A stretch of DNA of 32,000 nucleotides from Synechococcus sp. A15-28 (lineage in GTDB: Bacteria; Cyanobacteriota; Cyanobacteriia; PCC-6307; Cyanobiaceae): assembly GCF_014280175.1 (NCBI RefSeq), contig NZ_CP047931.1, positions 1,410,001 through 1,442,000 of the forward strand, written 5' to 3'. Below, one piece after another: positions 3,332-31,792 of this stretch. Below the pieces are notes generated by a model that was given only the letters and a program-made list of their open reading frames with translations, made no database searches and had not been told where the DNA came from. Position 1 is the first letter of the stretch. Each line of letters begins with the position of its first letter. A program made the translations under genes and the position numbers.

Positions 3332-4725
3332 CCCGTGAGCTGGCTCCGCAGCTGGAGATCCGTCACCGCGACAGCTTCGCTGCCCGCCTCCAGGAGTTGC
3401 TGCACCGAGCCATCCGCCGACACCAGCGCCGTCGGCCCCGTGTTCGCCACACTCAAAACGTCGCGTCCGGTTTCAATCGCCCGCAGCTGAGCCAGGGCCA
3501 GAAATTGCCGCTGCAACAGCTGGGGGTAGGGATCGAGATTAGCGATCGTCAACAACCATTCAGCCCCTTGCGCAGACGCTTGAGCCAAAGCCCATCCGTG
3601 GCTGATCTCGTAACAGATGGCGATGGCGGAGGGGGATGGCCAGGCCTCGGCATAACGAGACGCATTTCCCGGCTGAAGCCCCCCCACCGCCGACAGCCCC
3701 CGGGTCAAGCCAGCCGGCAACGGTGGCAACCACTCACCCAGTGGAACCAGACGGTGCTTGTCAACGAGGGGCTCCAGCCCGGCTAGGCCCGGCAACCCCA
3801 ACAACACACTGCTGCGCAGCTGCCCGCGAACCCAGCGAAAACCTCCGCTGATCAACGGCAGGGGCAACCCATCCACATCATCCGGCTGCCAGCGGGACGG
3901 CAGGGTTCCCTCCGGGGCCACCAACGCCTGCACCTGCAGGGCCTGGGCCTGCTGCAAGGCCGATGACAACGCTGCGTTGAAGCGCCGCTGGCGGTCCGGG
4001 CTGAATTTCTCACGGGTGGGAACCGCCGGCTGCCAGGCGCCAAGTCGCAGGGAAGCGAAGGCGGGCGGCGGAACCAAACTCAACGCCCCCAAGCCATGCG
4101 CCAGCAGCAGAGAGAGCAACCAAGCGGTGCTGCGTTTCCCCCGACGGCGCCAGAGCTGCCAGAGCCCCCAGCCCCAGATCAGCTGAAGCGTGGCCAGTCC
4201 ACCACTGCCAAGCCAGCGGGCCAGGCCAGCCAGTGGCCGGTCCAGAGGCAACACACTTCCCCCGACACCGATCCAGAACAACGGAGACCCTTCCAGAAGC
4301 AGTTCGGCTCCCCCCCAGACCAAAGACAGCAGCAGCACGACGGAGAACCGCCAGCCCCCGTCCCTGAACCGGCACATCCGCGCCAACAGAGACCAGAGCA
4401 GCAGCAGCAGGGCTGCGGCAACGCCGCAGCACAACCAGAGCGCAACAGCCACCGGCAAGCTGAGCCAAGCCGGCACGCCCATCCAGGTGAGTGGATGCAA
4501 GCCAAGAATCCAGCGGTGGCTGATCAGGACGGCAAACATCCCCCAGAGCGCCGCGTTCCGCGGTCGGTCCGCCAGCGACCACAGCAGGGCCAAGGCCGGA
4601 AACATCGACAACGGTCCGGCGACCCCAGGGGCCAGTCCGGCCAGGACTCCACCCAGAACACTTCGCAGCAGAGGCTGTGATCGGAGATCGCCCATGGTCA
4701 ATGGGATTAACTTGTCACGCATCAC
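3289..4725 (-). CDS. lnt: Apolipoprotein N-acyltransferase
   Basis: 478 aa. The N-terminal half is very hydrophobic with multiple TM segments. The C-terminal half is a CN-hydrolase domain with the catalytic-Cys context [10 protein letters not shown]. Its 3' end overlaps the mnmA 3' end by 43 nt. Confidence 0.8.
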
Positions 4726-4801
4726 TTAATCCGCCAGATCGCAGTGCTTGCAACTGTTCTGAAGCACGAGCACAGTCCGGTTGTCCAACGGACTTCAGCC
4801 C

Positions 4802-4996
4802 ATGGAACTGCAACTGGAACAACCACTGACATCGGTTCTCAGCGTCAAAGTCGCTTCTGACGTGGAGCCACGCCTTGATCACCACTGTGCCCGGCTTCAA
4901 CCCAGCGGCACCCTGACCCGCGCTGCCCTTGTGCGTGCCCTGCTTCGTAAGGGCCTGGCCGAGCTGGACGAGATGGAGTCAACCAGTGACCGCTGA
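4802..4996 (+). CDS. Ribbon-helix-helix (CopG/Arc-like) DNA-binding protein, 64 aa
   Basis: ATG at 4802 (the track uses TTG at 4781). The pattern is a beta-strand (LSVKV), helix (DVEPRLDHHCARL), turn and helix (TRAALVRALLRKGLAEL), typical of RHH. An inverted repeat GTGCTT-N12-AAGCAC lies at 4744-4767 just upstream. It is unclear whether this gene belongs to the host or the element. Confidence 0.5.
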   Translation: MELQLEQPLTSVLSVKVASDVEPRLDHHCARLQPSGTLTRAALVRALLRKGLAELDEMESTSDR

Positions 4997-5204
4997 TCTC
5001 TACACCCGCCCGCTAAGAGCTTCGGTGCGTGAACTTCTGCGGGAAGACAACATTGACATCGCGGAAGCGCTTTATTCCGACAGCGATTACCCAACAGCAC
5101 TCAGCAATCTTGCAGAAGTTCGTGTTGCAGCTCAGAAGGTTGTCTTTGAAGCTGATGCGCTCATGTGCGCAGTGCTTGTTAAGGCGATAAGGGAAGACGA
5201 TTGA
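4986..5204 (+). CDS. Hypothetical acidic helical protein, 72 aa
   Basis: The GTG at 4986 overlaps the stop of the upstream RHH gene (GTGACCGCTGA), suggesting an operon. G+C drops within this ORF. A weak hairpin GGGCG-N9-CGCCC follows the stop. Confidence 0.4.
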   Translation: MTADLYTRPLRASVRELLREDNIDIAEALYSDSDYPTALSNLAEVRVAAQKVVFEADALMCAVLVKAIREDD

Positions 5205-5237
5205 ATCATCATACGGGCGGGTAATTCTCGCCCATTG

Positions 5238-5265
5238 TTGACACTTTTAGTTCATCTCTCAAAAT
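5238..5265 (+). promoter_or_regulatory. Putative sigma-70-type promoter for the replication operon
   Basis: TTGACA at 5238-5243, a 16-nt spacer, then CAAAAT at 5260-5265, in an AT-rich spacer about 30 nt upstream of the 5294 ORF. This is a pattern match only. Confidence 0.25.
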
Positions 5266-5293
5266 GGACTCATAAGACAAATTTTTGGTTCTT

Positions 5294-5464
5294 ATGAAGT
5301 TCAAGCCGCGTTACAAGTATCCGCACATTGCTGCGACATACCTAAGCGATGAACTGCTCAGCCAAGTCACCAAATTCTCTGCTGTTCACGACTGCAGCAA
5401 ATCAGAAGCGATTCGCCTCCTGATGCAGAACGGCCTTGCCGCAATGCTTTTAGACGACGGCTGA
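5294..5464 (+). CDS. Small ribbon-helix-helix-like regulator, 56 aa (not in ORF track, <60 aa)
   Basis: Hand translation: MKFKPRYKYPHIAATYLSDELLSQVTKFSAVHDCSKSEAIRLLMQNGLAAMLLDDG*. The strand-helix-helix layout (ATYLSDELLSQV... SKSEAIRLLMQNGL) is typical of CopG/MetJ-type regulators. It is the first gene of the rightward Rep operon. Confidence 0.5.
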   Translation: MKFKPRYKYPHIAATYLSDELLSQVTKFSAVHDCSKSEAIRLLMQNGLAAMLLDDG

Positions 5465-5527
5465 GAAAAATGAAGGGCCGCCCTGACAAGCCAACCCTTC
5501 ACCAATCCGACCAATGGAATTTTAACC

Positions 5528-5680
5528 ATGAGACGATCTGATGCTGGATTTTCCGTCCTAATTGCTTCCATTTACAGCGAGATTGAGGACTGGATTGATA
5601 AGCACCCTGACTGCTCACCGCACGCCTCACTTGCGGTTGATCGTCTGTTGCTGCTTCTAACGACAATGGGACAGATGTGA
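5528..5680 (+). CDS. Hypothetical 50-aa protein, translationally coupled to Rep (not in ORF track)
   Basis: Hand translation: MRRSDAGFSVLIASIYSEIEDWIDKHPDCSPHASLAVDRLLLLLTTMGQM*. Its stop TGA (5678-5680) overlaps the Rep ATG (5680-5682) as TGATG. Confidence 0.35.
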   Translation: MRRSDAGFSVLIASIYSEIEDWIDKHPDCSPHASLAVDRLLLLLTTMGQM

Positions 5681-7668
5681 TGACAACTGATGGTTGGGAT
5701 GCGGAGGAGATTGATCCGACGCATAGGGACGAGTGGGTCAATGGTTCTGGCATCAGTCCTGAAATCACTGAATTAAATCTGCAGTCACTCAGTGGTCCGC
5801 AGGCTCTTGAAGCCATTACGTCAAAACGTCTGGAATCAGCAGGTGGTCATGGGCAGCAGTACGCCACAGGCGAAGTTGCCAAGGTTCTCAATCGTTATGA
5901 GCACCTAGACGCTGGTGGCTGGTGGTGCAGTGCCACAGGTGACTCAGGCTGCCTGAAACCAAACACACCACGCAAGAACGACAAAGGCGACCTGATCAAA
6001 TACGAGAACCCGTTAGGTGTTCCCTGCGGTGTCTTCCAGCTCCAGATGCCGGATGAGACCTACTGGCCTGAGCGTGAGCGGAACTGCAGCGAAACCATTG
6101 TCATCACAGAAGGCGCAAAGAAAGCAGCGGCGCTCCTGTCATGTGGCATCCCTGCCATTGCTGTTGCGGGCATCTGGAATGGCACACCAAAGGACGACCG
6201 TGACCAACACTGCCTGCACCCAGATCTGATGCGTTGGGCAGGGCATCGCATCGTCATCTGCTTTGACTACAGCGACAAAGCACGCGGCAGAAGAAACGTC
6301 AGCAAGGCAGCCCTGCGTCTTGCGCATCAGCTTTATGCCAACGGATCGCCGTGGGTTGGCACCGCACACTGCAAGGGTCCCGAGAAGGGCATTGATGATC
6401 TGCTGGTTGCTCACGGCCATGCCGCCGTTCATCAACTGATCGCCTCTGCGCAAAAGGTTGACGTTCAACGCGAGCTTGAGGACCGGAAAGAGCCAGAGCG
6501 GATCAGGCAAGCCGCCAACAAATTTCTGGACTGCGACGACGAGGCAGAGCGTGCCGCCTTCAGATCTAGGTTCTGCAGCAATAAACGCATCAACATCAAG
6601 GACTTCAGTTCGGTCGTTAATGAGCAGCTCGCTTTGCGGCATCCATTGCAAAAGCTGGAGTCACGGCCGCTGACACCCGATGAGCTTGATGCTGAGCCGG
6701 TTAACGACGCCAGAACGTTCTTTGATCAGCTTTTGACTGAACGCTGGTCAACCCTGATTGGCGGCAACAGAGGCAGCACCAAGACCATCCTCACGTTGCA
6801 ACTGATGGTGGCGTTGATGAAGCAGCGCAGCCCTGACGTGATCGGCTTGCGTCCTGAAGCAACGGGACTGCGTGTCCTTTACGTGTGCTCTGACGCGATG
6901 GCTGAACGCATCAGGGACTACCTGACTCAGATGGGCTGCTGGAGAGATCCAGAAGTTCGCAAGGGCATTCGGATCTGGGGCAACTCGCACACACAACGCA
7001 AGTGGACCATCAGTGACCTTGATGGATTGGAGAAGCAGATGGAGGAATTCAAACCAAACGTTGTCGTCATTGACTCGCTGAAGGGCGCCCTTGGGCCATT
7101 GCTTGAGGACATCTCAAGACCGATCATTCGGCATCACATGGATGCGGTGCATGACATCGTTCTGCGCAGTGCTGCATTGCTGTGGATCCACCACGCCAAC
7201 AAGATTGGAAAGATCGCAGACAACGAGGCACTACAGGAAGCACCTGACATGGTCTACCTGCTGGAGAAAGAGCAGAACGAACTGGTGAGCCTGAAGCCGA
7301 TCAAGTGCCGTGGCGGTGAAGGCATCCGTCGTCAGTACCAACTGCAGGGCGATTTCCTCTGGCCTGAGTTGACGGAGCAGAAGAAGACGTCAGACATCAG
7401 TAAGGTCAACAGCGACGTCATGGAGTACGTCAGGAAGCAAAACCAGCACGACATCAAGCCCAGCATCAGGACCGTGACAGAAGGGCTGCCTCAGCACTCC
7501 GCTGAAGCGATCAAGTCCAGCATCAAGCGGCTTAGAGGCAAGGAGTGGCTGCTGGGTAAGCCAGATCCAAAGGACCTGAGATCGTGCCTGCTGGAAGTGG
7601 CGCCAAAGTTTTTTGACACCCCCTCCCCCCCTGTAAAAGGGGCATGGCCCATAAAAAACGGCCCATAA
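5680..7668 (+). CDS. Replication protein: N-terminal Toprim/DUF3854-like primase-type domain plus C-terminal RecA/DnaB-like (AAA_25/RepA-like) ATPase. It resembles cyanobacterial plasmid CyRepA-type Rep proteins.
   Basis: About 662 aa. The N-terminal half has WV.GSGI, KYENPLG, and VITEGAKKAAALLSCGIPAIAVAGIWNG...VICFDYSD (a Toprim-like acidic cluster). The C-terminal half has a P-loop-like LIGGNRGSTKTILTLQL, Walker B VVVIDSLKG, and LLWIHHANK. The start is ATG 5680 (or GTG 5677). Confidence 0.85.
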   Translation: MTTDGWDAEEIDPTHRDEWVNGSGISPEITELNLQSLSGPQALEAITSKRLESAGGHGQQYATGEVAKVLNRYEHLDAGGWWCSATGDSGCLKPNTPRKNDKGDLIKYENPLGVPCGVFQLQMPDETYWPERERNCSETIVITEGAKKAAALLSCGIPAIAVAGIWNGTPKDDRDQHCLHPDLMRWAGHRIVICFDYSDKARGRRNVSKAALRLAHQLYANGSPWVGTAHCKGPEKGIDDLLVAHGHAAVHQLIASAQKVDVQRELEDRKEPERIRQAANKFLDCDDEAERAAFRSRFCSNKRINIKDFSSVVNEQLALRHPLQKLESRPLTPDELDAEPVNDARTFFDQLLTERWSTLIGGNRGSTKTILTLQLMVALMKQRSPDVIGLRPEATGLRVLYVCSDAMAERIRDYLTQMGCWRDPEVRKGIRIWGNSHTQRKWTISDLDGLEKQMEEFKPNVVVIDSLKGALGPLLEDISRPIIRHHMDAVHDIVLRSAALLWIHHANKIGKIADNEALQEAPDMVYLLEKEQNELVSLKPIKCRGGEGIRRQYQLQGDFLWPELTEQKKTSDISKVNSDVMEYVRKQNQHDIKPSIRTVTEGLPQHSAEAIKSSIKRLRGKEWLLGKPDPKDLRSCLLEVAPKFFDTPSPPVKGAWPIKNGP

Positions 7669-7752
7669 ATTTTGGATGTGGGCCATTCGGGTTATGAGAT
7701 ATGGGCCGCGCATAATCCCAGTCACTGACTGGTGTTTCCCTTGATATGGGCT
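7646..7752. repeat. Iteron-like repeat cluster (candidate replication origin)
   Basis: GGCCCATAAA occurs exactly at 7646-7655 and 7660-7669. Inverted copies follow: GTGGGCC at 7678-7684, ATGGGCC at 7701-7707 and ATGGGCT at 7746-7752. GATATGGGC is repeated at 7698-7706 and 7743-7751. A/T-rich stretches lie between them. The cluster straddles the Rep stop codon (7666-7668). Confidence 0.5.
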
Positions 7753-7808
7753 GTGTGTAGTGGTGTGTGTGTTGGGAGGAGAGAGAGTTCCTCCACTTCT
7801 ACTGTCAT

Positions 7809-8060
7809 CTAATCAGAAGCAAGCACCAGCTCCTTCGGGATGCGCTTCAGGCCACCGGCAACGTATGCCTCCCAGCAATCGCCTACGTCGCCGACGATCA
7901 GGATTGGGATGACTGTCCCTTTGTGTTGATAACGGGCATGGACCGGATCTATCACGTCTGCCTCACAAATACGGGTCCTTTCTGTGTAGCGCAGCGTAGG
8001 TAATTTCGGACCGCCTTCATTATTTAGCGTCAGATAAGTTGGACCTAAACTGCCTAGCAC
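7809..8060 (-). CDS. Hypothetical protein, 83 aa (GTG start)
   Basis: ORF-track entry and the last gene of the leftward small-gene string. Its composition is more protein-like than the overlapping + strand ORF 7767-8003. I recognise no motif. Confidence 0.3.
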   Translation of the reverse strand: MLGSLGPTYLTLNNEGGPKLPTLRYTERTRICEADVIDPVHARYQHKGTVIPILIVGDVGDCWEAYVAGGLKRIPKELVLASD

Positions 8061-8075
8061 TATCTATTAGCCAAG

Positions 8076-8252
8076 CTAATCAAATTTGTGGTCAACAGCA
8101 GATGATAGCACGGTGGAATGGTCTGCGCATCGTTTCTCCCGTACGGCCTGCCAGTACCGCCTCGCCTGCGCACTACTCAGGGCATCATCAGCAGGGTTAG
8201 GCCGCATTGGAACGTCATCATCAGGCTGATGAGAGGCGAATTGCTGAGGCAT
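8076..8252 (-). CDS. Hypothetical protein, 58 aa (not in ORF track)
   Basis: Hand translation: MPQQFASHQPDDDVPMRPNPADDALSSAQARRYWQAVREKRCADHSTVLSSAVDHKFD*. It sits between the AlpA-like gene and the 83-aa ORF on the same strand. Confidence 0.25.
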   Translation of the reverse strand: MPQQFASHQPDDDVPMRPNPADDALSSAQARRYWQAVREKRCADHSTVLSSAVDHKFD

Positions 8253-8278
8253 CAGTAGACAAAACTCATGCCCTTAAT

Positions 8279-8479
8279 TTATCGCTGTGTGTATAGCAGC
8301 AAGGCCATCTCACAGGCGGGCAAGTTAAAGCGCAGATGCCCGCGAGACGTTGCACCAGAACGGTAGTAGTGCACTCCGCCTTTGAAATAGCCTTCCTTCA
8401 TCAGCCGCCATTGTGTCGTTCGTCCTAACCGCAGTTGCCGTCTCATTTCTGACGCTTTTACCCAATCTGATTGGAACAC
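8279..8479 (-). CDS. AlpA/excisionase-like helix-turn-helix DNA-binding protein, 66 aa
   Basis: WVKASEMRRQLRLGRTTQWRLMKEGYFKGGVHYYR fits the AlpA/Xis HTH_17 pattern (L..E....LG.S..T.YRL.K.G.FP). It has a GTG start at 8479 and is divergent from the capsid gene. Confidence 0.7.
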   Translation of the reverse strand: MFQSDWVKASEMRRQLRLGRTTQWRLMKEGYFKGGVHYYRSGATSRGHLRFNLPACEMALLLYTQR

Positions 8480-8498
8480 CTTGGAACAAGTTGGTTGA
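8471..8498. promoter_or_regulatory. Helically phased tandem repeats (candidate operator) in the alpA-like/MCP divergent control region
   Basis: The sequence reads TTGGAACAcc TTGGAACAag TTGGTTGAtt. There are two exact 8-mers and one degenerate copy at 10-bp spacing. The first copy overlaps the alpA-like start codon. Confidence 0.35.
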
Positions 8499-8542
8499 TT
8501 TCATTCTATCGGCCGTAATGATATAAACACGCGAGGTAATCA

Positions 8543-9553
8543 ATGAATCACACCATCACCAAGAAGCGACCATATAGCTTCAACGCACTGCTCAGTTCGC
8601 TCAGTTCACAAGTCCCTGATAAACAGGCCACATGGGAGCAGAACTTGTCACTGCAGGCTGAGAAGTTCTACGGCCAGCACAGCATCCAGAAGAAGCAGGA
8701 GAACGCGGCGTTCATCCCTACCCGCCAGATGGTGCGTGATCTGCTGACGGGTACTGCCAGCAGTGGTGGTGACTTGGTGGCCACATCGGTGCAGAAAGTC
8801 GCAGACAGTGTCAGACCTGTGACGGTGCTTGAGCGTGCCGGTGTTGAGCGGATTGAAACCGGCGGAGAGAACCTGACCATCCCGCGCTTTGCCAAGGCCG
8901 ATGCCGGATGGATTGCGGAAGGTGCGGACTACACCGCACTCACCACTACGAGCACCAGCGTGGATACCAGTCCCAAGCTCGCCAGTGCCCGCCTGTCTTT
9001 CAGTCGCCGCCTGAAGGTGTTGGTGCCTGACGTTGAAGGGTCAGTGCTGCAGGAAGTTGGCCGTGCAGTCGCCGGATTGATTGAGAAGGGCGCGATTCAA
9101 GGCACCGGCAGCAATTCACAACCGCTTGGCCTGCTCAACCTGCCTGACGCCTTGTCGCAGACCTTCAGCTCCGCAACTCCCACCAGCGATGAGCTGGCAG
9201 AAATGCTGGAGAGGCTCGGTGATGCCGATGTGGATCTGCGCAAGGTGGTGTTCCTGATGCACCCGAGCACTGCCGCTGATCTGATGAAGACCCGCGTGGA
9301 TGCCAGCAGTGGCGCGTTGGTGCTCAGTGACCTGAAGATTCACGGGCTGCCGGTATTCATCACAAGCAATGTCACCGAGGACAAGGTGATCGCACTGGAT
9401 CCGAGTTACAGCCGCCTCGTCTACTTCGGCAGTGCGCAAGTCGTCGTGGATCCCTTCCGAGGAGCCGTCACTGGTGTCACGCACACACAAATCCTGAACG
9501 CAGCGGACTTCGTTTGCACGCATCAATCCAGTGTCTGCATCGGCTCCGCTTAA
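8543..9553 (+). CDS. Phage major capsid protein, HK97 family (PF05065-like)
   Basis: 336 aa. Family-typical blocks are present: SGGDLVATSVQKVADSVRPVTVLERAGV, LTIPRFAKADAGWIAEGADY, IQGTGSNSQPLGLLN, and VFLMHPSTAADLMKTR. A GAGG Shine-Dalgarno lies 8 nt upstream of the ATG. Confidence 0.85.
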   Translation: MNHTITKKRPYSFNALLSSLSSQVPDKQATWEQNLSLQAEKFYGQHSIQKKQENAAFIPTRQMVRDLLTGTASSGGDLVATSVQKVADSVRPVTVLERAGVERIETGGENLTIPRFAKADAGWIAEGADYTALTTTSTSVDTSPKLASARLSFSRRLKVLVPDVEGSVLQEVGRAVAGLIEKGAIQGTGSNSQPLGLLNLPDALSQTFSSATPTSDELAEMLERLGDADVDLRKVVFLMHPSTAADLMKTRVDASSGALVLSDLKIHGLPVFITSNVTEDKVIALDPSYSRLVYFGSAQVVVDPFRGAVTGVTHTQILNAADFVCTHQSSVCIGSA

Positions 9554-9659
9554 TCGCGGAGGGTCGGACCGGTGCAGGTAGAGCGGTTTCTTCCATGGCT
9601 GCTCAACAGGGGTCGGTTGTTGAGGAGCCGGCCCCGCCCTATTCACTCAGAAGCGACAG

Positions 9660-9866
9660 ATGAACCGCGACTACATCAACTGGCTCACGTCACTGCCTAA
9701 TAACCGTGGCGTCAGGGATAGGCAGATCAACGTCTGGATGTCGGGCTATGCGCCTCTACCCGATGAGATTGACCTGCAGCACTGCGAGGAGATGCAGCAG
9801 CGGTGGTTGGTGCGGGAGTGCCCTGACGGTGTGCTGGGAAGGCTTTGGCGGTGGTTGCACGATTGA
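9660..9866 (+). CDS. Hypothetical protein, 68 aa
   Basis: ORF-track entry downstream of the MCP on the same strand. No motif recognised. Confidence 0.35.
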   Translation: MNRDYINWLTSLPNNRGVRDRQINVWMSGYAPLPDEIDLQHCEEMQQRWLVRECPDGVLGRLWRWLHD

Positions 9867-9873
9867 GATGAGA

Positions 9874-10806
9874 TCAAAGCCCACCATTTCCTTCTTCAAA
9901 GAGCAGGAATAGCTCGCCTTCGTAACCCAATTCGCGCATCATATACGCCCAATCAGCTTCATCCGCTGGATCGTAATCATCGCTTTTGCTGATGTTCTCA
10001 GCGGCCCACATGGGCCTGAGATTTCTCCAGTTGAAGCAGACAATCTGCTGTTCTTCATCAGTGAGGTCAAAGCTTGCGCAGGGTCTGATGTGATCTACAT
10101 GCCAGCCTTCCTTGCCATAGTTATCCCAGCTCATCCCTTCTTCCCAATTAGCTGCAAGGTAAGCCTTGAAGTCAGCTATCTCTGCATCAATAAGTTCTGC
10201 TGTCTTCGCGGCCTTTACCATTCCCTGCTTCTTAAGCGCGTCACTTATTCGGGTGTTGAGGCGTGAGTGGAGCTTGAACTGAGGATCGTGCTTCAGTTTC
10301 CAAGTGCTTATCGGCATTCCTTTCTCAGCTTCAAATTTATCCTTCCATTGCTTTCTCGCTTTGTTGCGAGATACATGCCCTGCTTCGCTTTGGCTGTAAC
10401 GCCGATCAGCCTCAGCTTTTTTGCCACTGGCCACAAACTTAGCCTTCGCTCGCTTGGATGCCTCCCTGTACCAATCAGAGTCTTTGATTCTTTCATAGTG
10501 AGCCTTTCTTTTTTCCTTGGCACCTTCATCATTTTTGTGCCGCTGATATGACTCCCTTGCGACGCGAGCTTTATTGGATTTCCAGTTGGGATCGGTTTCA
10601 CGACGTTTCGCCTCGTATTCGCGGAAATAACCTTAAGCCGCTTTTTTTCTAGTGGCTATTCGCTTGCACTACATGCACTGTCCACCACTCGTCACACGTG
10701 GGGCAACATGCCCTTGTTTGCAGGTCGTGCCAGTGAAGTACTGCTTGAGCCCTTTTTCTTGGGCTTGCTTTCGGGAAAGAAATGGGCCGTAAATAAGGTC
10801 TTGCAT
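9874..10806 (-). pseudogene. Phage-type HNH endonuclease with an N-terminal zinc-ribbon and K/R/E-rich repeats, interrupted by two in-frame stop codons (TAG 10669-10671, TAA 10633-10635)
   Basis: One frame of 311 codons runs from ATG 10806 to stop 9874. The N-terminal segment is MQDLIYGPFLSRKQAQEKGLKQYFTGTTCKQGHVAPRVTSGGQCM*CKRIATRKKAA*GYFREYEAKRRETDPNWKSNKARVARESYQRHKNDEGAKEKRKAHYERIKDSDWYREASKRAKAKF. The track ORF (GTG 10434) follows, and it contains the HNH motif HVDHIRP...NWRNLRPMWAAENISK. The ATG overlaps the integrase stop as TAATG. Confidence 0.7.
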
Positions 10807-12674
10807 TATTTAGATCTCCTGCGCTTAGCCGGCCTGCCTCTGCGCCGTTGTTCAATTTTGTATTGAAGACCAGTTTCCTTGCCATCAGGATCAACAATAT
10901 TCATCAGTGCTCCTTTGGTCATTACTTCAGTAAGTGGTGGAGCATCTGGAAAGTTTCGGCGCCATGACTCTTCTGGGCCAATGGTTGCAATTTCATTGCT
11001 GAAGTCGTACTCCTGATCATGCCCGCCTACCTGCTGCTTAACCTCCTCCACGTTGATAAAGGTGGTAAGTGTCCCTTCCTTGCTAACCCATCCTTCTCCG
11101 AATTGAACATCCTTATGTCGGGTGTCAATTTCAAAAACCAAGCCTTCGCGTGTCAGCCAAGAGTTGAATTCATCACGTGCGTTCAGGTCGGTTCTGTCTG
11201 ACTCCATGAAGGCTGATAGGCGCTGCTTGACTTCACGCTCGGCCTCACGACTACTTGGCCGTCTCTCAAGCTTGGCTAGATGCGCCTCGGCCTCGTTCAA
11301 CGCTTGCTTGGCCACCACAAGGTCAGCCTCTGCCTCCCGTAGAGCCTCATCCCAAAGCAACAGCGCACTGTTCGGTGTCTCCGGCACAGCGTTCTTGATC
11401 TGATTCCGCTTGCTGCTGACCAGGTCCTCCAGTGGGCCAACAGCACCAGATGCCTTCAGGACCTTCTGACGCGCTTCAGCGGTTTCTGCATCGTGTTTGT
11501 CGTCTCCGAAGAAGTCACTCCACCTAAAAGTTCTGACATGCTCCAGCAGGGCCAGCTCGTCGTAGGGAATGTTCGGCGCAGTGCAGTCGGAGCGGCCAAG
11601 GACACGGCCATTGCAATTGAGTGAGAAGCCGTTGCGTGAACGCCTGACGCCAAGCCTGTGGCCGCATTCAGCACAGAAGGTCCTCTTCTCAAACAAATTG
11701 ATCCGCTTCCTGCCATTAGGGAGCCCGCGCACTCCACGTCGGCCTGCGATGCCGTCCCTGGCGGCCTGCCACTCAGTTGGCGTGATGATCGCCGGGTAGA
11801 CGCCCTTGGTGATGTCTTCCTTTTCGTTGCCCGACTTGTTCTGACGGTGGCCAAGCACCGCAACGTTCTCCAGCAACAGGTGGATTTCGGCTTCTGTGAT
11901 GACAGCGCCTGATCTGGCGAGCGTGATGCCATCTGCCTGAAGCTCGCGAGCAATGCGGCGGGCTCCAAGGTCCTTCGCCAGTCGGAACGCTTTCTGCACC
12001 CACTGGACTTCGTCTTCCAACAGCACCCAATTCCCGTCTTGATCAACGTCCAGCCATCTCGGGTAGCCAGGGTTCGTGTTGGTTTCACTCCTTGGGTTGA
12101 AGCGGAAGCCGCCGAACACTGCTGTTTTGCCATCGGCATGGGCTTCTATCTGCTGGCGGCGGTACTGAACAGCGCCCTGGCTGCGGGCCTGCTTCTCCTT
12201 CCATTCGCGGTGAGCTGAATCAGCAGCACCAGCAATCCTGTAAACGGTGCCACCTCCATCGCTGAGGCTTCTCAAAATCTCGTGGCCCCAGTCGCAAAAG
12301 CTGACGCCAACCCCGGCTCTGAAGATGTCGGTCAGCAGGTTGAAGCAGTCCTGCATGTCTCCTCGGCTTAGGCGCGAGAAGGTCTCCACGATGAGGATGG
12401 TGCCGTGCTGCACCCGGTGAGACCTGGCGTCCTCAAGGAACTGACCAAGGAGGCCCTTCTCAAGGTTCTTGCGGTTGCCGGAGATGGTTTCACGCACAAC
12501 CTCCTGCACGTCGTATTCGGGATGAGCTTTTTTCCACTCGGCTAGGGCTGCGTCCTGTCTGCTGAATCCGCTTTTCCCGTCTAGTGACTGCTCGCCCGTG
12601 CTGACACGCTGGTAGCAGATGGCCACTTTCGCGACCGGTGAGTTTTGCAGCTTGTCAGGCTTGGTGCGTGGCAC
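10806..12674 (-). CDS. Large serine recombinase (integrase)
   Basis: 622 aa. It has the resolvase catalytic motif VAICYQRVSTGEQ, a recombinase domain, a zinc ribbon CAECGHRLG...NCNGRVLGRSDC, and a long coiled-coil segment (EADLVVAKQALNEAEAHLAKLERR). The start is GTG at 12674 or GTG at 12626. Confidence 0.9.
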   Translation of the reverse strand: MPRTKPDKLQNSPVAKVAICYQRVSTGEQSLDGKSGFSRQDAALAEWKKAHPEYDVQEVVRETISGNRKNLEKGLLGQFLEDARSHRVQHGTILIVETFSRLSRGDMQDCFNLLTDIFRAGVGVSFCDWGHEILRSLSDGGGTVYRIAGAADSAHREWKEKQARSQGAVQYRRQQIEAHADGKTAVFGGFRFNPRSETNTNPGYPRWLDVDQDGNWVLLEDEVQWVQKAFRLAKDLGARRIARELQADGITLARSGAVITEAEIHLLLENVAVLGHRQNKSGNEKEDITKGVYPAIITPTEWQAARDGIAGRRGVRGLPNGRKRINLFEKRTFCAECGHRLGVRRSRNGFSLNCNGRVLGRSDCTAPNIPYDELALLEHVRTFRWSDFFGDDKHDAETAEARQKVLKASGAVGPLEDLVSSKRNQIKNAVPETPNSALLLWDEALREAEADLVVAKQALNEAEAHLAKLERRPSSREAEREVKQRLSAFMESDRTDLNARDEFNSWLTREGLVFEIDTRHKDVQFGEGWVSKEGTLTTFINVEEVKQQVGGHDQEYDFSNEIATIGPEESWRRNFPDAPPLTEVMTKGALMNIVDPDGKETGLQYKIEQRRRGRPAKRRRSK

Positions 12675-12792
12675 GCGGAATCGCCAGAACCCTTATGAAC
12701 ACAAGGATATGAGCCGTGTCAAGTCAGCTGTATTGACCATGGTCAGCGATGCGCAGCAGCGTCATCCTGATGCCAGGCCGCAACCGCGACGG

Positions 12793-14295: not shown

Positions 14296-14321
14296 ATCTG
14301 AACAGTTTGTTCCCTCCTTTG

Positions 14322-14358
14322 GCAGCAGCAGGTCTCAAGGATCTGCTGTTGTTTTTTT
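14322..14358 (+). terminator. Rho-independent terminator-like hairpin plus T-tract between sodN and sodX
   Basis: The core stem pairs CAGCAGGTC (14326-14334) with GATCTGCTG (14340-14348): 9 bp with one G-U and a 5-nt loop. It is extendable to about 13 bp and is followed by GTTTTTTTGT (14351-14360). Confidence 0.6.
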
Positions 14359-14684
14359 GTGGCCGCCGGCGGCTGCTGAAGATTCAGGGTGATTCCATGC
14401 TTCCCCACCTGGAATCCGAGGATCGGATCCTGATCAACCCACGCATCACACCTCGTACTGGTGATGTCGTTGTGGCGTGGCATCCGAGCAAACCCGACTT
14501 ACGCCTGATCAAAAGGCTTCGTGGGATGGAGTCCAACGGCATGATCCTCTTGGGGGACAACCCCTCAGCCAGCACCGACAGCCGCCAGCTGGGGCCGATC
14601 CCCACCGCGCTGATGATCGGTGTAGCCGTGTCGCGTCTCAAAAGATCGCCGACGACGTCTTCTGCAACCAGATCGCACCAGTGA
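14349..14684 (+). CDS. sodX: NiSOD maturation peptidase (S26/S24 signal-peptidase family)
   Basis: It has the catalytic-Ser motif GDSMLPHL and the downstream KRL and GDN blocks, and it lies next to sodN. The start is ambiguous: TTG 14349 (after the hairpin) or TTG 14307 (track). The 3' end overlaps the convergent transporter gene by 47 nt. Confidence 0.7.
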   Translation: MFFCGRRRLLKIQGDSMLPHLESEDRILINPRITPRTGDVVVAWHPSKPDLRLIKRLRGMESNGMILLGDNPSASTDSRQLGPIPTALMIGVAVSRLKRSPTTSSATRSHQ

Positions 14685-18813: not shown

Positions 18814-18847
18814 GACGGCGGAGAGGACCTTCTCCTGTAAACGGTAG

Positions 18848-18931
18848 TGCGGATGGGGAGACTTGAACTCCCACGATGTTGCCACCACTAGTACCTGAAA
18901 CTAGCGCGTCTACCAATTCCGCCACATCCGC
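18848..18931 (-). tRNA. tRNA-Leu (anticodon CAG)
   Basis: Hand-folded cloverleaf: acceptor GCGGATG/CATCCGC, anticodon stem CTAGT/ACTAG with loop TTCAGGT, a long variable arm, and T-arm GGGAG-TTCAAGT-CTCCC. CCA is not encoded. Confidence 0.85.
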
Positions 18932-20423: not shown

Positions 20424-20506
20424 GGGAGCCTGGCGGAATTGGTAGACGCAGCTGACTCAAAATCAGCCGGCCACTGGTCTTGGGGGTTCAAGTCCCCCGG
20501 CTCCCA
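20424..20506 (+). tRNA. tRNA-Leu (anticodon CAA)
   Basis: Acceptor GGGAGCC/GGCTCCC, anticodon stem GCTGA/TCAGC with loop CTCAAAA, a long variable arm, and T-arm GGGGG-TTCAAGT-CCCCC. Confidence 0.85.
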
Positions 20507-26561: not shown

Positions 26562-26635
26562 GGCGGGCGTCGCCAAGTGGTTAAGGCAGCGGCTTGTGGC
26601 GCCGCTATTCGGGGGTTCGAATCCCCTCGCTCGCC
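26562..26635 (+). tRNA. tRNA-His (anticodon GUG) with encoded G-1
   Basis: Acceptor GCGGGCG/CGCTCGC (one G-U) plus an extra 5' G opposite C73. The anticodon stem is GCGGC/GCCGC with loop TTGTGGC, and the T-arm is GGGGG-TTCGAAT-CCCCT. Confidence 0.8.
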
Positions 26636-26694
26636 CTCACCCCCATGAAGAGCATCCGGTGGTGTAACACACTGGAATTGGCTCCGATTCGAAT

Positions 26695-31648: not shown

Positions 31649-31792
31649 CGGAATTGGGTGACCCGGAATCCACGCCTGCTCTGAGCATCCCGTGTGGCTG
31701 CTCCCTTCCGGGCCTGACCAGATTTGGGTGTCCGAGCCGCATGGCCCGAGTCCCCTTGATGCTAGCAATGAGCGCTGAGGCCCTATGCGCCC

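What the first reader, a model, noticed from the sequence alone, without database searches (positions are those of the whole stretch)
4726..12792. About 8-kb integrated phage-satellite-like element with an unusual gene combination
A compositionally distinct block sits between two runs of housekeeping genes. Its genes are phage- or plasmid-like.
- Integration: a large serine recombinase (10806-12674).
- Nuclease: an HNH endonuclease gene (9874-10806).
- Structure: a single HK97-type major capsid protein (8543-9553).
- Regulation: an AlpA-like HTH protein (8279-8479) and 2-3 small RHH regulators.
- Replication: a Toprim plus RecA-like Rep (5680-7668) followed by iterons.

There is no portal, terminase, protease, tail or lysis gene. 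At 8.1 kb or less it is far too small for a prophage. The int + alpA-like + pri/rep + ori + capsid-gene logic is that of phage satellites (PICI, cf-PICI, P4-like). The particular combination does not match any described satellite family that I know: a serine rather than tyrosine integrase, a CyRepA-like Rep, the MCP as the only structural gene, a non-tRNA insertion locus, and a cyanobacterial host. It may be related to satellite-like islands reported in marine picocyanobacteria, but I cannot verify that here.
Basis: partly seen in the sequence, partly recalled or inferred. Interest (0 to 1): 0.85.

Follow-up and report, generated by a model that had tools for sequence, protein, structure and literature searches.

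The report
Capsid-gene-carrying mobile island in Synechococcus
An 8-kb mobile DNA element sits precisely at the start codon of a housekeeping gene in marine Synechococcus sp. A15-28, carries one phage capsid gene and no other virion gene, and is most likely a phage satellite of a kind already proposed for marine picocyanobacteria, here with a serine instead of a tyrosine integrase.

Summary
An 8,045-bp, lower-GC block (54.5% vs 62.5%) is a true insertion. Ten related contigs have the same lnt–phasin–FKBP–sodN neighbourhood with an empty site. A 9-bp repeat, CCATGGTCA, marks both ends (4692-4700, 12737-12745). It contains the lnt start codon.

A metagenome contig that is 91-96% identical over the shared parts runs straight across the predicted circular junction. 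So the element also exists as a circle or as head-to-tail copies.

The large serine recombinase, the HK97-fold capsid protein (dN/dS 0.14), the DUF3854 plus AAA_25 replication protein and the excisionase-type HTH protein are all supported. The HNH gene has two in-frame stops. The iterons are weak.

The element belongs to a family of about 8-10 kb elements in Synechococcus and Cyanobium. The module HTH–capsid gene–68-aa gene is conserved. Replication proteins, integrases (serine or tyrosine) and cargo are swapped. No locus examined has a recognisable portal, terminase, protease or tail gene.

The capsid protein matches the capsid half of phage protease–capsid fusion proteins, for example in cyanosiphovirus S-LBS1. 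It lacks their protease and scaffold parts.

Best reading: a phage satellite whose capsid homologue co-assembles with helper capsids, as Ccm of SaPIbov5 does. Capsid-gene-carrying "PICI-like tycheposons" are already published for Prochlorococcus. I therefore call it a new variant of a known kind.

The parts
4692..4700 (.). attL core CCATGGTCA. It contains the ATG of lnt on the minus strand, within CCATGG.
   Evidence: Comparison with empty sites in L001-L004. L153 crosses the junction exactly at this core.
4781..4996 (+). 71-aa small regulator-like protein (putative RHH). It is the first gene after attP.
   Evidence: Conserved in L012, L014 and L153. dN/dS 0.06 against L153. No profile hit, so the fold is inferred from the sequence pattern only.
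5285..5464 (+). 59-aa putative repressor-like protein, preceded by a sigma-70-like site at 5238-5265.
   Evidence: phrog_4738 'transcriptional repressor' E 0.0049 and phrog_24852 E 0.00085. Promoter-like match. This evidence is weak.
5528..5680 (+). 50-aa conserved ORF that overlaps the Rep start (ATGA-type overlap).
   Evidence: Homologues sit directly upstream of Rep in L011, L012 and L014. No family hit.
5677..7668 (+). Replication protein: DUF3854 (Toprim-like) N-terminal half plus an AAA_25 (RecA/DnaB-like) ATPase.
   Evidence: Pfam DUF3854 1.2e-25 and AAA_25 2.3e-11. phrog_239 primase/helicase. Residues ~10-330 are about 30% identical to CyRepA1-family plasmid Rep proteins.
7646..7707 (.). 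Possible origin region: two exact copies and one near copy of GGCCCATAA just after rep.
   Evidence: 10 matches in the window against 4.4 ± 2.2 expected; 2 of 100 shuffles reach that count. Not found by the repeat tools. Not conserved in L151/L152. Inconclusive.
7809..8060 (-). 83-aa conserved ORF of unknown function, last gene of the leftward operon.
   Evidence: 45% identical to the L011 74-aa ORF. No family hit.
8076..8252 (-). 58-aa conserved ORF (family f6) downstream of the HTH gene.
   Evidence: Conserved in 10 loci. No family hit.
8279..8479 (-). 66-aa excisionase/AlpA-type winged-HTH protein, divergent from the MCP gene. Candidate activator or recombination directionality factor.
   Evidence: Present next to the MCP gene in all relatives. 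6 of 13 orthologues hit HTH_17 PF12728, best E 2.3e-7. The role is inferred.
8471..8494 (.). Short tandem repeat TTGGAACAAC (2.4 copies). It spans the start of the HTH gene and the first part of the 63-bp divergent HTH/MCP intergenic region. Possible operator.
   Evidence: Tandem Repeats Finder, score 34. The function is inferred.
8543..9553 (+). HK97-fold major capsid protein homologue (336 aa), without protease or scaffold (delta) domain.
   Evidence: PF05065 2e-19, phrog_617 1.8e-34, TIGR01554. AF2 model pLDDT 74 with Foldseek hits to HK97, R4C, encapsulin and cf-PICI capsids. dN/dS 0.14. Aligns to the C-terminal half of S78 protease-MCP fusions.
9660..9866 (+). 68-aa conserved protein (s68) that accompanies the MCP gene in most relatives. 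Function unknown.
   Evidence: 22 members in 20 loci. dN/dS 0.17. No family hit.
9874..10806 (-). HNH nuclease gene in the variable cargo slot, interrupted by two in-frame stops. Only the C-terminal 186-aa ORF (9874-10434) is open.
   Evidence: phrog_1035 endonuclease VII 2.9e-7. DHIRP...NWRNLRP motif read from the sequence. tblastn against the L108 352-aa homologue runs in one frame across TAG 10669-10671 and TAA 10633-10635.
10806..12674 (-). Large serine recombinase (622 aa), the integrase.
   Evidence: Resolvase 3.5e-13, Recombinase 7.4e-10, Zn_ribbon_recom 3.4e-6; phrog_95 4.6e-43. YQRVSTGEQ catalytic-serine motif read from the sequence. 97% identical protein in a Parasynechococcus MAG.
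12737..12745 (.). attR core CCATGGTCA. It retains the ATG of the long form of the phasin-like gene.
   Evidence: The reconstructed attP has 18/26 symmetric half-sites, including the 16-bp palindrome ATTGACCATGGTCAAT.

Best explanation
It is an 8,045-bp site-specific integrative element of Synechococcus sp. A15-28 that most likely lives as a phage satellite.

Shown:
- The large serine recombinase gene lies at the right end.
- The element sits between two copies of the 9-bp core CCATGGTCA, at the shared start-codon palindrome of lnt and the phasin-like gene.
- Close relatives of the host have the site empty.
- A 91-96% identical element occurs in nature with its ends joined at the predicted attP.
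- The capsid gene is under purifying selection.
- The capsid gene is the hallmark of a family of 8-10 kb elements that never show other recognisable virion genes.

Inferred:
- On infection by, or induction of, a helper siphovirus whose capsid gene is a prohead-protease/scaffold/MCP fusion (the S-LBS1 or S-CBS type), the excisionase-type HTH protein switches the element on and acts with the recombinase to excise it.
- The DUF3854-AAA_25 Rep replicates the circle from an origin next to rep.
- The satellite capsid protein has neither protease nor scaffold domain and so cannot build a shell alone. It co-assembles into helper procapsids and redirects them to a size suited to about 8 kb or multiples, as Ccm of SaPIbov5 does. 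This favours packaging of the element and lowers helper yield.
- The slot between the 68-aa gene and the integrase carries exchangeable cargo, often nucleases, which may attack the helper or aid packaging. In this copy the HNH gene is broken.
For: Insertion and att sites:
- 10 of 10 related contigs have the site empty.
- The core repeat is exact, the element measures 8,045 bp, and GC is 54.5% against 62.5%.
- attP half-sites are 18/26 symmetric, as expected for an LSR site.

Mobility:
- L153 is colinear with the circularised element across the LSR-to-RHH junction. Its single blastn alignment across the junction is 93.9% identical, and the break falls exactly at the core.
- L011 has a perfect 8,450-bp period over 1.96 units.
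- In L012, L014 and L119 the integrase and rep are also contiguous.

Genes.

Capsid protein:
- HK97 fold.
- dN/dS 0.14 in three comparisons.
- 93 homologues, nearly all of the complete ones 333-341 aa.
- The nearest non-family relatives are S78 protease-MCP fusions of about 600 aa, which match only through their C-terminal 330 aa.
- S-LBS1 of Synechococcus has such a fusion.

Family architecture and swaps:
- Rep: DUF3854+AAA_25, DUF3854+D5_N, VapE, PrimPol.
- Integrase: LSR or tyrosine.
- Cargo differs between loci.
- No virion gene other than the MCP gene was recognised in any locus.

Precedents:
- MCP- or terS-carrying PICI-like tycheposons, found in viral-fraction metagenomes (10.1101/2020.12.28.424599).
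- Ccm of SaPIbov5 (PMC8569155).
Against: - There is no direct evidence of encapsidation or of helper dependence.
- The sample types of the contigs that carry the circular junction are unknown.
- No isolated phage shares DNA with the element. The closest isolated phage MCPs are only 24-30% identical, so no helper is identified.
- No cos or pac site, terS gene or recognisable interference gene was found.
- The 68-aa partner gene has no assignable function.
- Unlike Ccm, this MCP has no delta domain.
- VEIMEs, the marine satellites actually recovered from virus particles, were reported to lack capsid genes (PMC9618062).
- The symmetric centre of attP is the palindromic dinucleotide AT. That would not set orientation for a serine recombinase, so the true crossover position is uncertain.
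Confidence: 0.55

Rival explanations
1. It is an integrative, plasmid-like element that is not packaged by phages. Its capsid homologue is a defence effector: a scaffold-less decoy subunit that poisons the capsid assembly of infecting siphoviruses. The element itself spreads by vesicles or other routes.
For: - The MCP lacks the protease and scaffold parts of its phage relatives, as a dominant-negative subunit might.
- The Rep N-terminal half is of the plasmid CyRepA1 type.
- The variable slot holds nucleases and a PADLOC candidate family, PDC-S57, in L102.
- Tycheposons were also found in vesicles.
- No packaging signal or terS gene was found.
Against: - In known systems, interference through a capsid homologue goes together with satellite packaging (Ccm, PMC8569155).
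- MCP-type PICI-like tycheposons were abundant in viral-fraction metagenomes.
- The tight size range of the family, 8-10 kb, suggests a packaging constraint.
- PADLOC models did not match any protein of the window element.
Confidence: 0.2
2. It is the decayed remnant of a prophage that has lost all morphogenesis genes except the capsid gene.
For: - Phage-type genes are present (integrase, MCP, HNH).
- The HNH gene is broken by two stops.
- Truncated MCP remnants exist elsewhere (L098-L100).
Against: - The same compact architecture recurs in tens of loci at 37-96% MCP identity. None has a portal, terminase, protease or tail gene.
- The MCP, the 68-aa gene and the recombinase are under purifying selection.
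- Intact att sites and a circular junction are present.
- Rep is a plasmid-type initiator.
Confidence: 0.03
3. The capsid homologue forms an encapsulin-like protein compartment, or a self-sufficient mini-particle, encoded by a mobile element and independent of any helper.
For: - Foldseek ranks encapsulins among the top structural matches.
- Pfam PF05065 also covers some non-viral shells (my own knowledge of encapsulin family 3, not tested here).
Against: - No cargo enzyme is conserved next to the gene. Its constant neighbours are an HTH protein and a 68-aa protein.
- The sequence relatives are phage protease-MCP fusions.
- There is no portal or terminase to fill a shell with DNA.
- The gene always sits in an excising, replicating element.
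Confidence: 0.05

Closest known systems
PICI-like tycheposons of Prochlorococcus (Hackl et al., bioRxiv 10.1101/2020.12.28.424599; later published in Cell 2023, which I could not read here)
   Same: - The host is a marine picocyanobacterium.
- It is a small integrative element with a site-specific integrase and a primase/helicase module.
- A single packaging-type gene (MCP or terS) is the only virion-related gene, and there is no other cargo.
- Modules are exchanged within a shared gene network.
- A phage-satellite lifestyle is proposed but not shown.
   Different: - 474 of 501 tycheposons carry tRNA-associated tyrosine recombinases and sit in tRNA-proximal islands.
- This element uses a large serine recombinase and targets the lnt/phasin start-codon palindrome.
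- The host is Synechococcus (relatives are in Cyanobium), not Prochlorococcus.
- Whether the MCP belongs to the same protein family as the tycheposon MCP could not be tested.
VEIMEs, module 3 (Eppley et al. 2022, PMC9618062)
   Same: - They are marine, about 5-25 kb, and integrase-bearing.
- 91% of module 3 have a serine recombinase.
- They are associated with Cyanobacteria.
- They carry AlpA and primase/helicase genes.
- They occur as concatemers.
   Different: - VEIMEs were recovered from virus particles and are reported to encode no major capsid gene.
- In this family the capsid gene is the hallmark.
- Its presence in particles is untested.
SaPIbov5-type cos PICIs with Ccm (PMC8569155, PMC5052747)
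   Same: - The only capsid gene of the satellite is a homologue of an HK97-type helper capsid protein.
- That protein cannot form capsids alone.
- There is no terS gene.
- An HNH nuclease is part of the packaging logic of the cos helper phages, as I recall from Quiles-Puchalt et al. 2014, which was not read here.
   Different: - The host is Staphylococcus and the integrase is a tyrosine recombinase.
- Ccm keeps an N-terminal delta domain, which this MCP lacks.
- A helper cos site is demonstrated there, and none is identified here.
- There is no detectable sequence relationship.
PLEs of Vibrio cholerae
   Same: Phage satellites that integrate with a large serine recombinase. They replicate with their own initiator and carry nucleases against the helper.
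   Different: About 18 kb, with no MCP homologue as hallmark, a different Rep type, restricted to Vibrio, and no sequence similarity found.
Capsid-forming PICIs (cf-PICIs)
   Same: The satellite encodes its own HK97-fold capsid protein. The cf-PICI EcCI2 capsid is among the Foldseek hits.
   Different: cf-PICIs carry a full head module (portal, protease, adaptors, terS). Here only the MCP gene is present.

Membership tests
Large serine recombinase integrative element | Recombinase with an N-terminal resolvase catalytic domain (active-site Ser), a recombinase domain and a zinc ribbon | tested here: met
   PF00239 3.5e-13, PF07508 7.4e-10, PF13408 3.4e-6. YQRVSTGEQ motif in the translation.
Large serine recombinase integrative element | Short identical core at attL and attR, a symmetric attP, and an empty attB in relatives | tested here: met
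   9-bp core CCATGGTCA. Ten empty sites. attP half-sites 18/26 symmetric. attP junction seen in L153.
Tycheposon (Hackl et al.) | tRNA-associated tyrosine recombinase of the tycheposon clade | tested here: not met
   The only integrase in the window element is a serine recombinase. Some relatives have a divergent tyrosine integrase (phrog_1), but its clade was not determined.
Tycheposon (Hackl et al.) | Integration at a tRNA gene bordering a genomic island | tested here: not met
   No tRNA lies in or next to the element; the nearest is at 18847. attB is the lnt/phasin start region. One relative, L015, ends near tRNA-Thr.
Tycheposon (Hackl et al.) | PICI-like subtype: MCP or terS as the only packaging gene, plus a primase/helicase module | tested here: met
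   MCP plus the DUF3854-AAA_25 Rep, and no other virion gene.
PICI (Gram-negative type) | Integrase at one end, alpA-type activator, pri-rep with adjacent ori, no phage structural or lysis genes beyond hijacking genes, size about 10-15 kb | tested here: inconclusive
   The integrase is at the end but is of the serine type. The HTH_17/AlpA-type protein is supported through orthologues. pri-rep is met. The ori repeats are weak. The size, 8 kb, is below the usual range.
PICI (Gram-negative type) | Induction by, and packaging into particles of, a helper phage | not testable with these tools
   This needs infection or induction experiments, or virome read mapping.
cf-PICI | Complete capsid module (MCP, portal, protease, head-tail adaptors, terS) | tested here: not met
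   Only the MCP gene was detected in the window, and no other head gene was recognised in the related loci examined.
P4-like satellite | psu, delta, sid, alpA, a P4-type alpha primase and a tyrosine integrase | tested here: not met
   No Pfam, PHROG or NCBIfam hit to any P4 marker except a generic primase/helicase.
PLE | Vibrio satellite with LSR, RepA_N-type initiator and PLE-specific genes | tested here: not met
   Only the integrase class is shared. Rep is DUF3854+AAA_25.
VEIME module 3 | Serine-recombinase element recovered as concatemers from virus particles; no capsid gene | tested here: inconclusive
   LSR is met. L011 is a perfect 1.96-unit repeat, but the sample fraction is unknown. 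The element has an MCP gene, unlike the reported VEIMEs.
CyRepA plasmid replication proteins | N-terminal DUF3854 plus C-terminal DEXDc helicase (PMC10079941) | tested here: inconclusive
   The DUF3854 half is met, with about 30% identity to annotated CyRepA1-family proteins. The C-terminal half is AAA_25, not DEXDc.
Ccm-type capsid redirection (SaPIbov5) | Satellite-encoded MCP homologue that co-assembles with helper capsid protein and changes capsid size | not testable with these tools
   Only the precondition is shown: an HK97-fold MCP homologue as the sole capsid gene, lacking its own scaffold and protease.
Encapsulin | Shell gene next to a conserved cargo enzyme with a targeting peptide; not part of an excising element | tested here: not met
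   The conserved neighbours are an HTH protein and a 68-aa protein. The gene always lies in an integrase+Rep element.

The most novel reading that the evidence does not exclude
These elements are the first tractable satellite-helper system of cyanobacteria. They form a family spread across marine, estuarine and freshwater Synechococcus and Cyanobium. Its hallmark is a capsid subunit stripped of the protease and scaffold parts of the siphoviral protease-MCP fusion. That subunit co-assembles with helper procapsids to make small heads for about 8 kb (or multiples) of satellite DNA. The integrase class (serine or tyrosine), the replication protein and a nuclease-rich cargo slot are freely exchanged. 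A cultured strain, A15-28, carries an apparently intact copy with defined attL, attR, attP and attB.
Probability: 0.35. Interest if true: 0.75.

Novelty: new variant of a known kind. Interest (0 to 1): 0.55.

Why it matters
Marine Synechococcus is one of the most abundant phototrophs, and its mortality is largely due to phages. Satellites that divert phage capsids would change both phage yield and gene flow.

So far, MCP-carrying satellite-like elements of picocyanobacteria are only predicted, mainly in Prochlorococcus, and no helper is known.

This copy sits in a cultured, fully sequenced strain. Its ends are defined to the base, the empty site is known, and a natural circular junction exists. 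PCR, induction and infection tests can therefore be designed directly.

The link of its capsid protein to protease-MCP fusion genes of cyanosiphoviruses narrows the search for a helper.

The serine recombinase, with its short and well-defined attP and attB, could also serve as an integration tool for marine Synechococcus.

Tried and rejected
- IMG/VR scan with the single MCP sequence: nothing confirmed. With the alignment, only one family member was found (L016); the rest were 27-31% identical MCP relatives on IMG/VR viral contigs, whose contexts I did not examine.
- GTDB species-representative genomes: one hit only, a Cyanobium MAG. The scan used a single peptide pattern, so absence elsewhere is weak evidence.
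- blastn of the whole element against 50,697 phage records: no match, so there is no helper lead from shared cos/pac or other DNA.
- LSR against phages: only 23-26% identity to unrelated recombinases.
- PDB sequence searches: none for the HNH protein, and only spurious hits for the HTH protein.
- PADLOC on cargo proteins: only a homing-endonuclease model (L103) and PDC-S57 (L102). Nothing for the window.
- Iterons: not recovered by either repeat tool, and the motif count is marginal.
- Promoter and terminator scans: not above shuffled expectation.
- Rfam: no RNA family inside the element.
- Test of whether the 68-aa and 65-aa partner genes derive from the genes after the S-LBS1 capsid gene: no similarity.
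- Terminal overlaps as a sign of circular contigs: none in L012-L014.
- The published Cell version of the tycheposon paper is not held.
- Decayed prophage and encapsulin readings were considered and rejected (see the rival explanations).

Full report

Yes. GC falls to 0.48-0.58 between about 4.7 and 12.7 kb, against 0.61-0.67 outside. Computed exactly, the block has 54.5% GC and both flanks have 62.5%.

The window comes from Synechococcus sp. A15-28. The MCP is identical to QNI42782.1, from a 2.34-Mb contig.

The identical SodN protein served as a probe. It returned ten contigs from metagenomes and MAGs with the same gene order: tRNA methyltransferase, lnt, phasin-like gene, FKBP, sodN. In all ten, lnt lies directly next to the phasin-like gene.

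Aligning the empty site with the two window borders shows a 9-bp direct repeat, CCATGGTCA, at 4692-4700 and 12737-12745. The element is therefore 8,045 bp.

The core holds the ATG of lnt on the minus strand. It also holds the ATG of the long form of the phasin-like gene on the plus strand, because both lie in the palindrome CCATGG. Both start codons survive integration. The sequence upstream of lnt, however, is now element DNA.

**2. Genes**

- The recombinase (10806-12674, minus strand) has Resolvase, Recombinase and Zn_ribbon_recom domains and matches phrog_95 integrase at 4.6e-43.
- The capsid protein (8543-9553) matches PF05065 (2e-19), TIGR01554 (1.2e-16) and phrog_617 (1.8e-34). An AlphaFold2 model built on 31 family members has pLDDT 74. 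Foldseek matches it to siphophage R4C, HK97, encapsulins, the GTA capsid and a cf-PICI capsid.
- Rep (5677-7668) is DUF3854 plus AAA_25. Its first 330 residues are about 30% identical to proteins annotated 'plasmid replication protein, CyRepA1 family' on cyanobacterial plasmids. CyRepA proteins, however, have a DEXDc helicase half (PMC10079941).
- The 66-aa protein divergent from the MCP gene has no Pfam hit itself. Six of 13 orthologues match HTH_17, the excisionase-type HTH family, with best E 2.3e-7.
- The 'HNH gene' is a single frame from 10806 to 9874. It is homologous over most of its length (tblastn 9898-10773) to an intact 352-aa HNH protein of a relative (L108). It is interrupted by TAG (10669-10671) and TAA (10633-10635), so only the last 186 codons are open.
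- The putative iterons are two exact copies and one near copy of GGCCCATAA after rep. The support is marginal.
- Nothing in the element matches a portal, terminase, protease, tail or lysis family.

**3. Evidence of mobility**

The reconstructed attP has half-sites that are 18/26 symmetric, including the perfect 16-bp palindrome ATTGACCATGGTCAAT. The attB half-sites are 10/26 symmetric.

The metagenome contig L153 encodes an MCP 95% identical to the window MCP. It is colinear with the circularised window element from the recombinase gene, across the junction, into the first regulator gene and the start of rep. The single blastn alignment across the junction is 93.9% identical. The two window alignments overlap by exactly the core. 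The joined-ends form of this element lineage therefore exists in nature.

A more distant relative, L011 (MCP 82%), is a 16.5-kb scaffold with a perfect 8,450-bp period. In L012, L014 and L119 the integrase and rep are likewise contiguous.

These forms fit circles or head-to-tail concatemers. I cannot tell which, and I do not know which size fraction the samples came from.

**4. The family**

The MCP has 93 homologues at 37-96% identity. Nearly all complete ones are 333-341 aa, and most lie on contigs under 10 kb.

Context was gathered from 27 loci. The conserved module is: excisionase-type HTH gene (leftward), then the MCP gene, an optional 65-aa gene and a 68-aa gene (rightward).

Everything else is exchanged:
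- Rep is DUF3854+AAA_25, DUF3854+D5_N, VapE-like, PrimPol, or DUF3854 plus an SF2-like helicase.
- The integrase is a large serine recombinase in 10 loci. In five loci (L105, L107, L108, L119, L146) it is a 370-450-aa protein family with R-H-R-Y type motifs. The two members tested, from L108 and L119, match phrog_1 integrase.
- The slot between the 68-aa gene and the integrase differs even between the window and the closely related L153. In various loci it holds HNH, GIY-YIG/T5orf172, DUF4379, homing-endonuclease-like and unknown or secreted proteins.

One Cyanobium MAG copy ends near tRNA-Thr. Truncated remnants occur next to host genes.

Element GC is 47-56%, while two host flanks are 66-67%. 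The flanks are thus much more GC-rich than the elements. One host is a MAG named Cyanobium. I saw no sign of low-GC Prochlorococcus hosts, although the genome scan used a single peptide pattern.

Purifying selection acts on the MCP (dN/dS 0.14 in three pairs), the 68-aa gene (0.17), the recombinase (0.34) and the first regulator (0.06).

**5. Where the capsid gene comes from**

A profile search of 1.84 billion cluster representatives gave about 40 stand-alone relatives. After those came a long series of roughly 600-aa proteins that match only through their C-terminal 330 residues. Five of the six tested are Peptidase_S78 prohead protease plus Phage_capsid fusions.

The freshwater Synechococcus siphovirus S-LBS1 has such a 631-aa 'major capsid protein'. 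The satellite protein aligns to its residues 298/345-628. The marine cyanosiphoviruses S-CBS1 and S-CBS3 are also among the best isolated-phage hits, at about 27% identity.

The satellite protein thus corresponds to the capsid moiety alone. It has neither protease nor the scaffold-like segment between protease and capsid.

No isolated phage is close enough to be named as helper, and there is no DNA similarity.

**6. How it most likely works**

Shown: LSR-type integration at a defined attB, existence of the joined form, an intact and constrained MCP gene, and a plasmid-type Rep.

Inferred: a satellite life cycle. The nearest experimental precedent for a satellite with an MCP homologue as its only capsid gene is SaPIbov5. 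Its Ccm takes the pentamer positions in helper φ12 procapsids and forces small T=4 heads. Ccm cannot form capsids alone (PMC8569155).

A capsid subunit that lacks its own scaffold and protease, as here, must rely on helper-encoded assembly functions. Co-assembly and size redirection, or assembly poisoning, is therefore the most economical role.

The small HTH protein is a candidate activator or directionality factor. The nuclease-rich slot may hold anti-helper or packaging functions. In A15-28 that gene is broken.

I put about 0.55 on the satellite reading as a whole. I put well above 0.9 on 'active or recently active LSR integrative element'.

**7. Comparison with known systems**

[quoted passage not shown] They were found in viral-fraction metagenomes, and 27 of the 937 integrative elements in that study (tycheposons plus cryptic elements) use a large serine recombinase.

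Eppley et al. describe VEIME module 3 as 91% serine-recombinase and associated with Cyanobacteria. They report that VEIMEs lack capsid genes.

The kind of element is therefore known. This element fails two defining tycheposon features, the tRNA-associated tyrosine recombinase and the tRNA site. I do not file it as a tycheposon.

Its relatives with tyrosine integrases, and one copy ending near a tRNA, show that it belongs to the same sort of module-swapping pool. It is not a P4-like element, a PLE or a cf-PICI.

I found no paper in the held library that describes this family in Synechococcus.

**8. Verdict**

The HNH gene, the iterons and the novelty claim need correction. It is a new variant of a known kind.

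Its value is practical. It lies in a cultured strain, the att sites are defined to the base, a circular junction is seen in nature, and there is a concrete lead to helper phages with protease-MCP fusion genes.

Noticed in passing
window 4692-4700 and 12737-12745; empty site L001 8910-8930: In empty-site genomes the start codons of lnt (minus strand) and of the long form of the phasin-like gene (plus strand) share one CCATGG palindrome. This palindrome is the recombination core. After insertion, lnt has only element DNA upstream, and its ORF can extend 10 codons into the element (478 vs 468 aa). Which promoter now drives lnt is unknown.
   Followed up: partly
window 9874-10806 (-): The HNH nuclease gene carries two in-frame stop codons (TAG 10669-10671, TAA 10633-10635), while all core genes of the element are intact. 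The cargo gene may be decaying, or only the C-terminal HNH domain may be made.
   Followed up: yes
L016 1-11546 (IMG/VR UViG 3300027977_002433, a 19.7-kb contig; same as L113): One contig carries two different MCP genes of this family (337 aa and 339 aa, clearly divergent), about 8.4 kb apart. Each is followed by a 597-bp stretch that is 99.7% identical between the two. This may be two related elements in tandem or a hybrid assembly. Only the first 11.5 kb was available.
   Followed up: partly
L098 477-989, L099, L100: A 170-aa truncated MCP lies directly against a host alpha/beta-hydrolase gene. In L099 and L100 its HTH gene and a 126-aa gene lie upstream. It recurs in at least four contigs, one of them 166 kb with 66% GC host DNA. 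It looks like a fixed remnant of an element of this family.
   Followed up: partly
L105, L107, L108, L119, L146 (for example L119 2958-4295, minus strand): The tyrosine integrases of related elements (370-450 aa) get no Pfam hit at E 0.01. The two tested, from L108 and L119, match only phrog_1. They may belong to one of the divergent picocyanobacterial integrase clades described in the literature. This was not tested.
   Followed up: partly
L151 3927-6414: A contig with an MCP 91% identical to the window MCP has, after the MCP gene, a 168-aa gene and a 541-aa beta-propeller protein (Vgb_lyase, DUF5648) instead of nuclease plus integrase. This is a different cargo or context for a near-identical capsid module.
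   Followed up: no
L011 2933-3499; L013 2197-3177; L120 8565-9440 and 11331-11987; L111 5925-6914: Several cargo-slot proteins of related elements start with signal-peptide-like hydrophobic segments. They may be secreted or envelope proteins, for example for superinfection exclusion. No family hits.
   Followed up: no
window 14307-14684: A Peptidase_S24/S26-like gene lies directly after sodN. It is probably the Ni-SOD maturation protease, and its position is conserved in the related contigs. Host feature, unrelated to the element.
   Followed up: no
window 18847-18931, 20424-20506, 26563-26636, 31656-31753: tRNA-Leu(CAG), tRNA-Leu(CAA), tRNA-His(GTG) and the small SRP RNA. GC dips to 0.53 around the first tRNA-Leu (18.5-19 kb) with no sign of an insertion there; the gene order matches the related contigs.
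   Followed up: partly
window 12737-12745 / attP: The symmetric centre of attP is the palindromic dinucleotide AT within CCATGG. A palindromic crossover dinucleotide would not fix orientation for a serine recombinase. The actual crossover is therefore probably offset within the 9-bp identity, or orientation is set in some other way.
   Followed up: no
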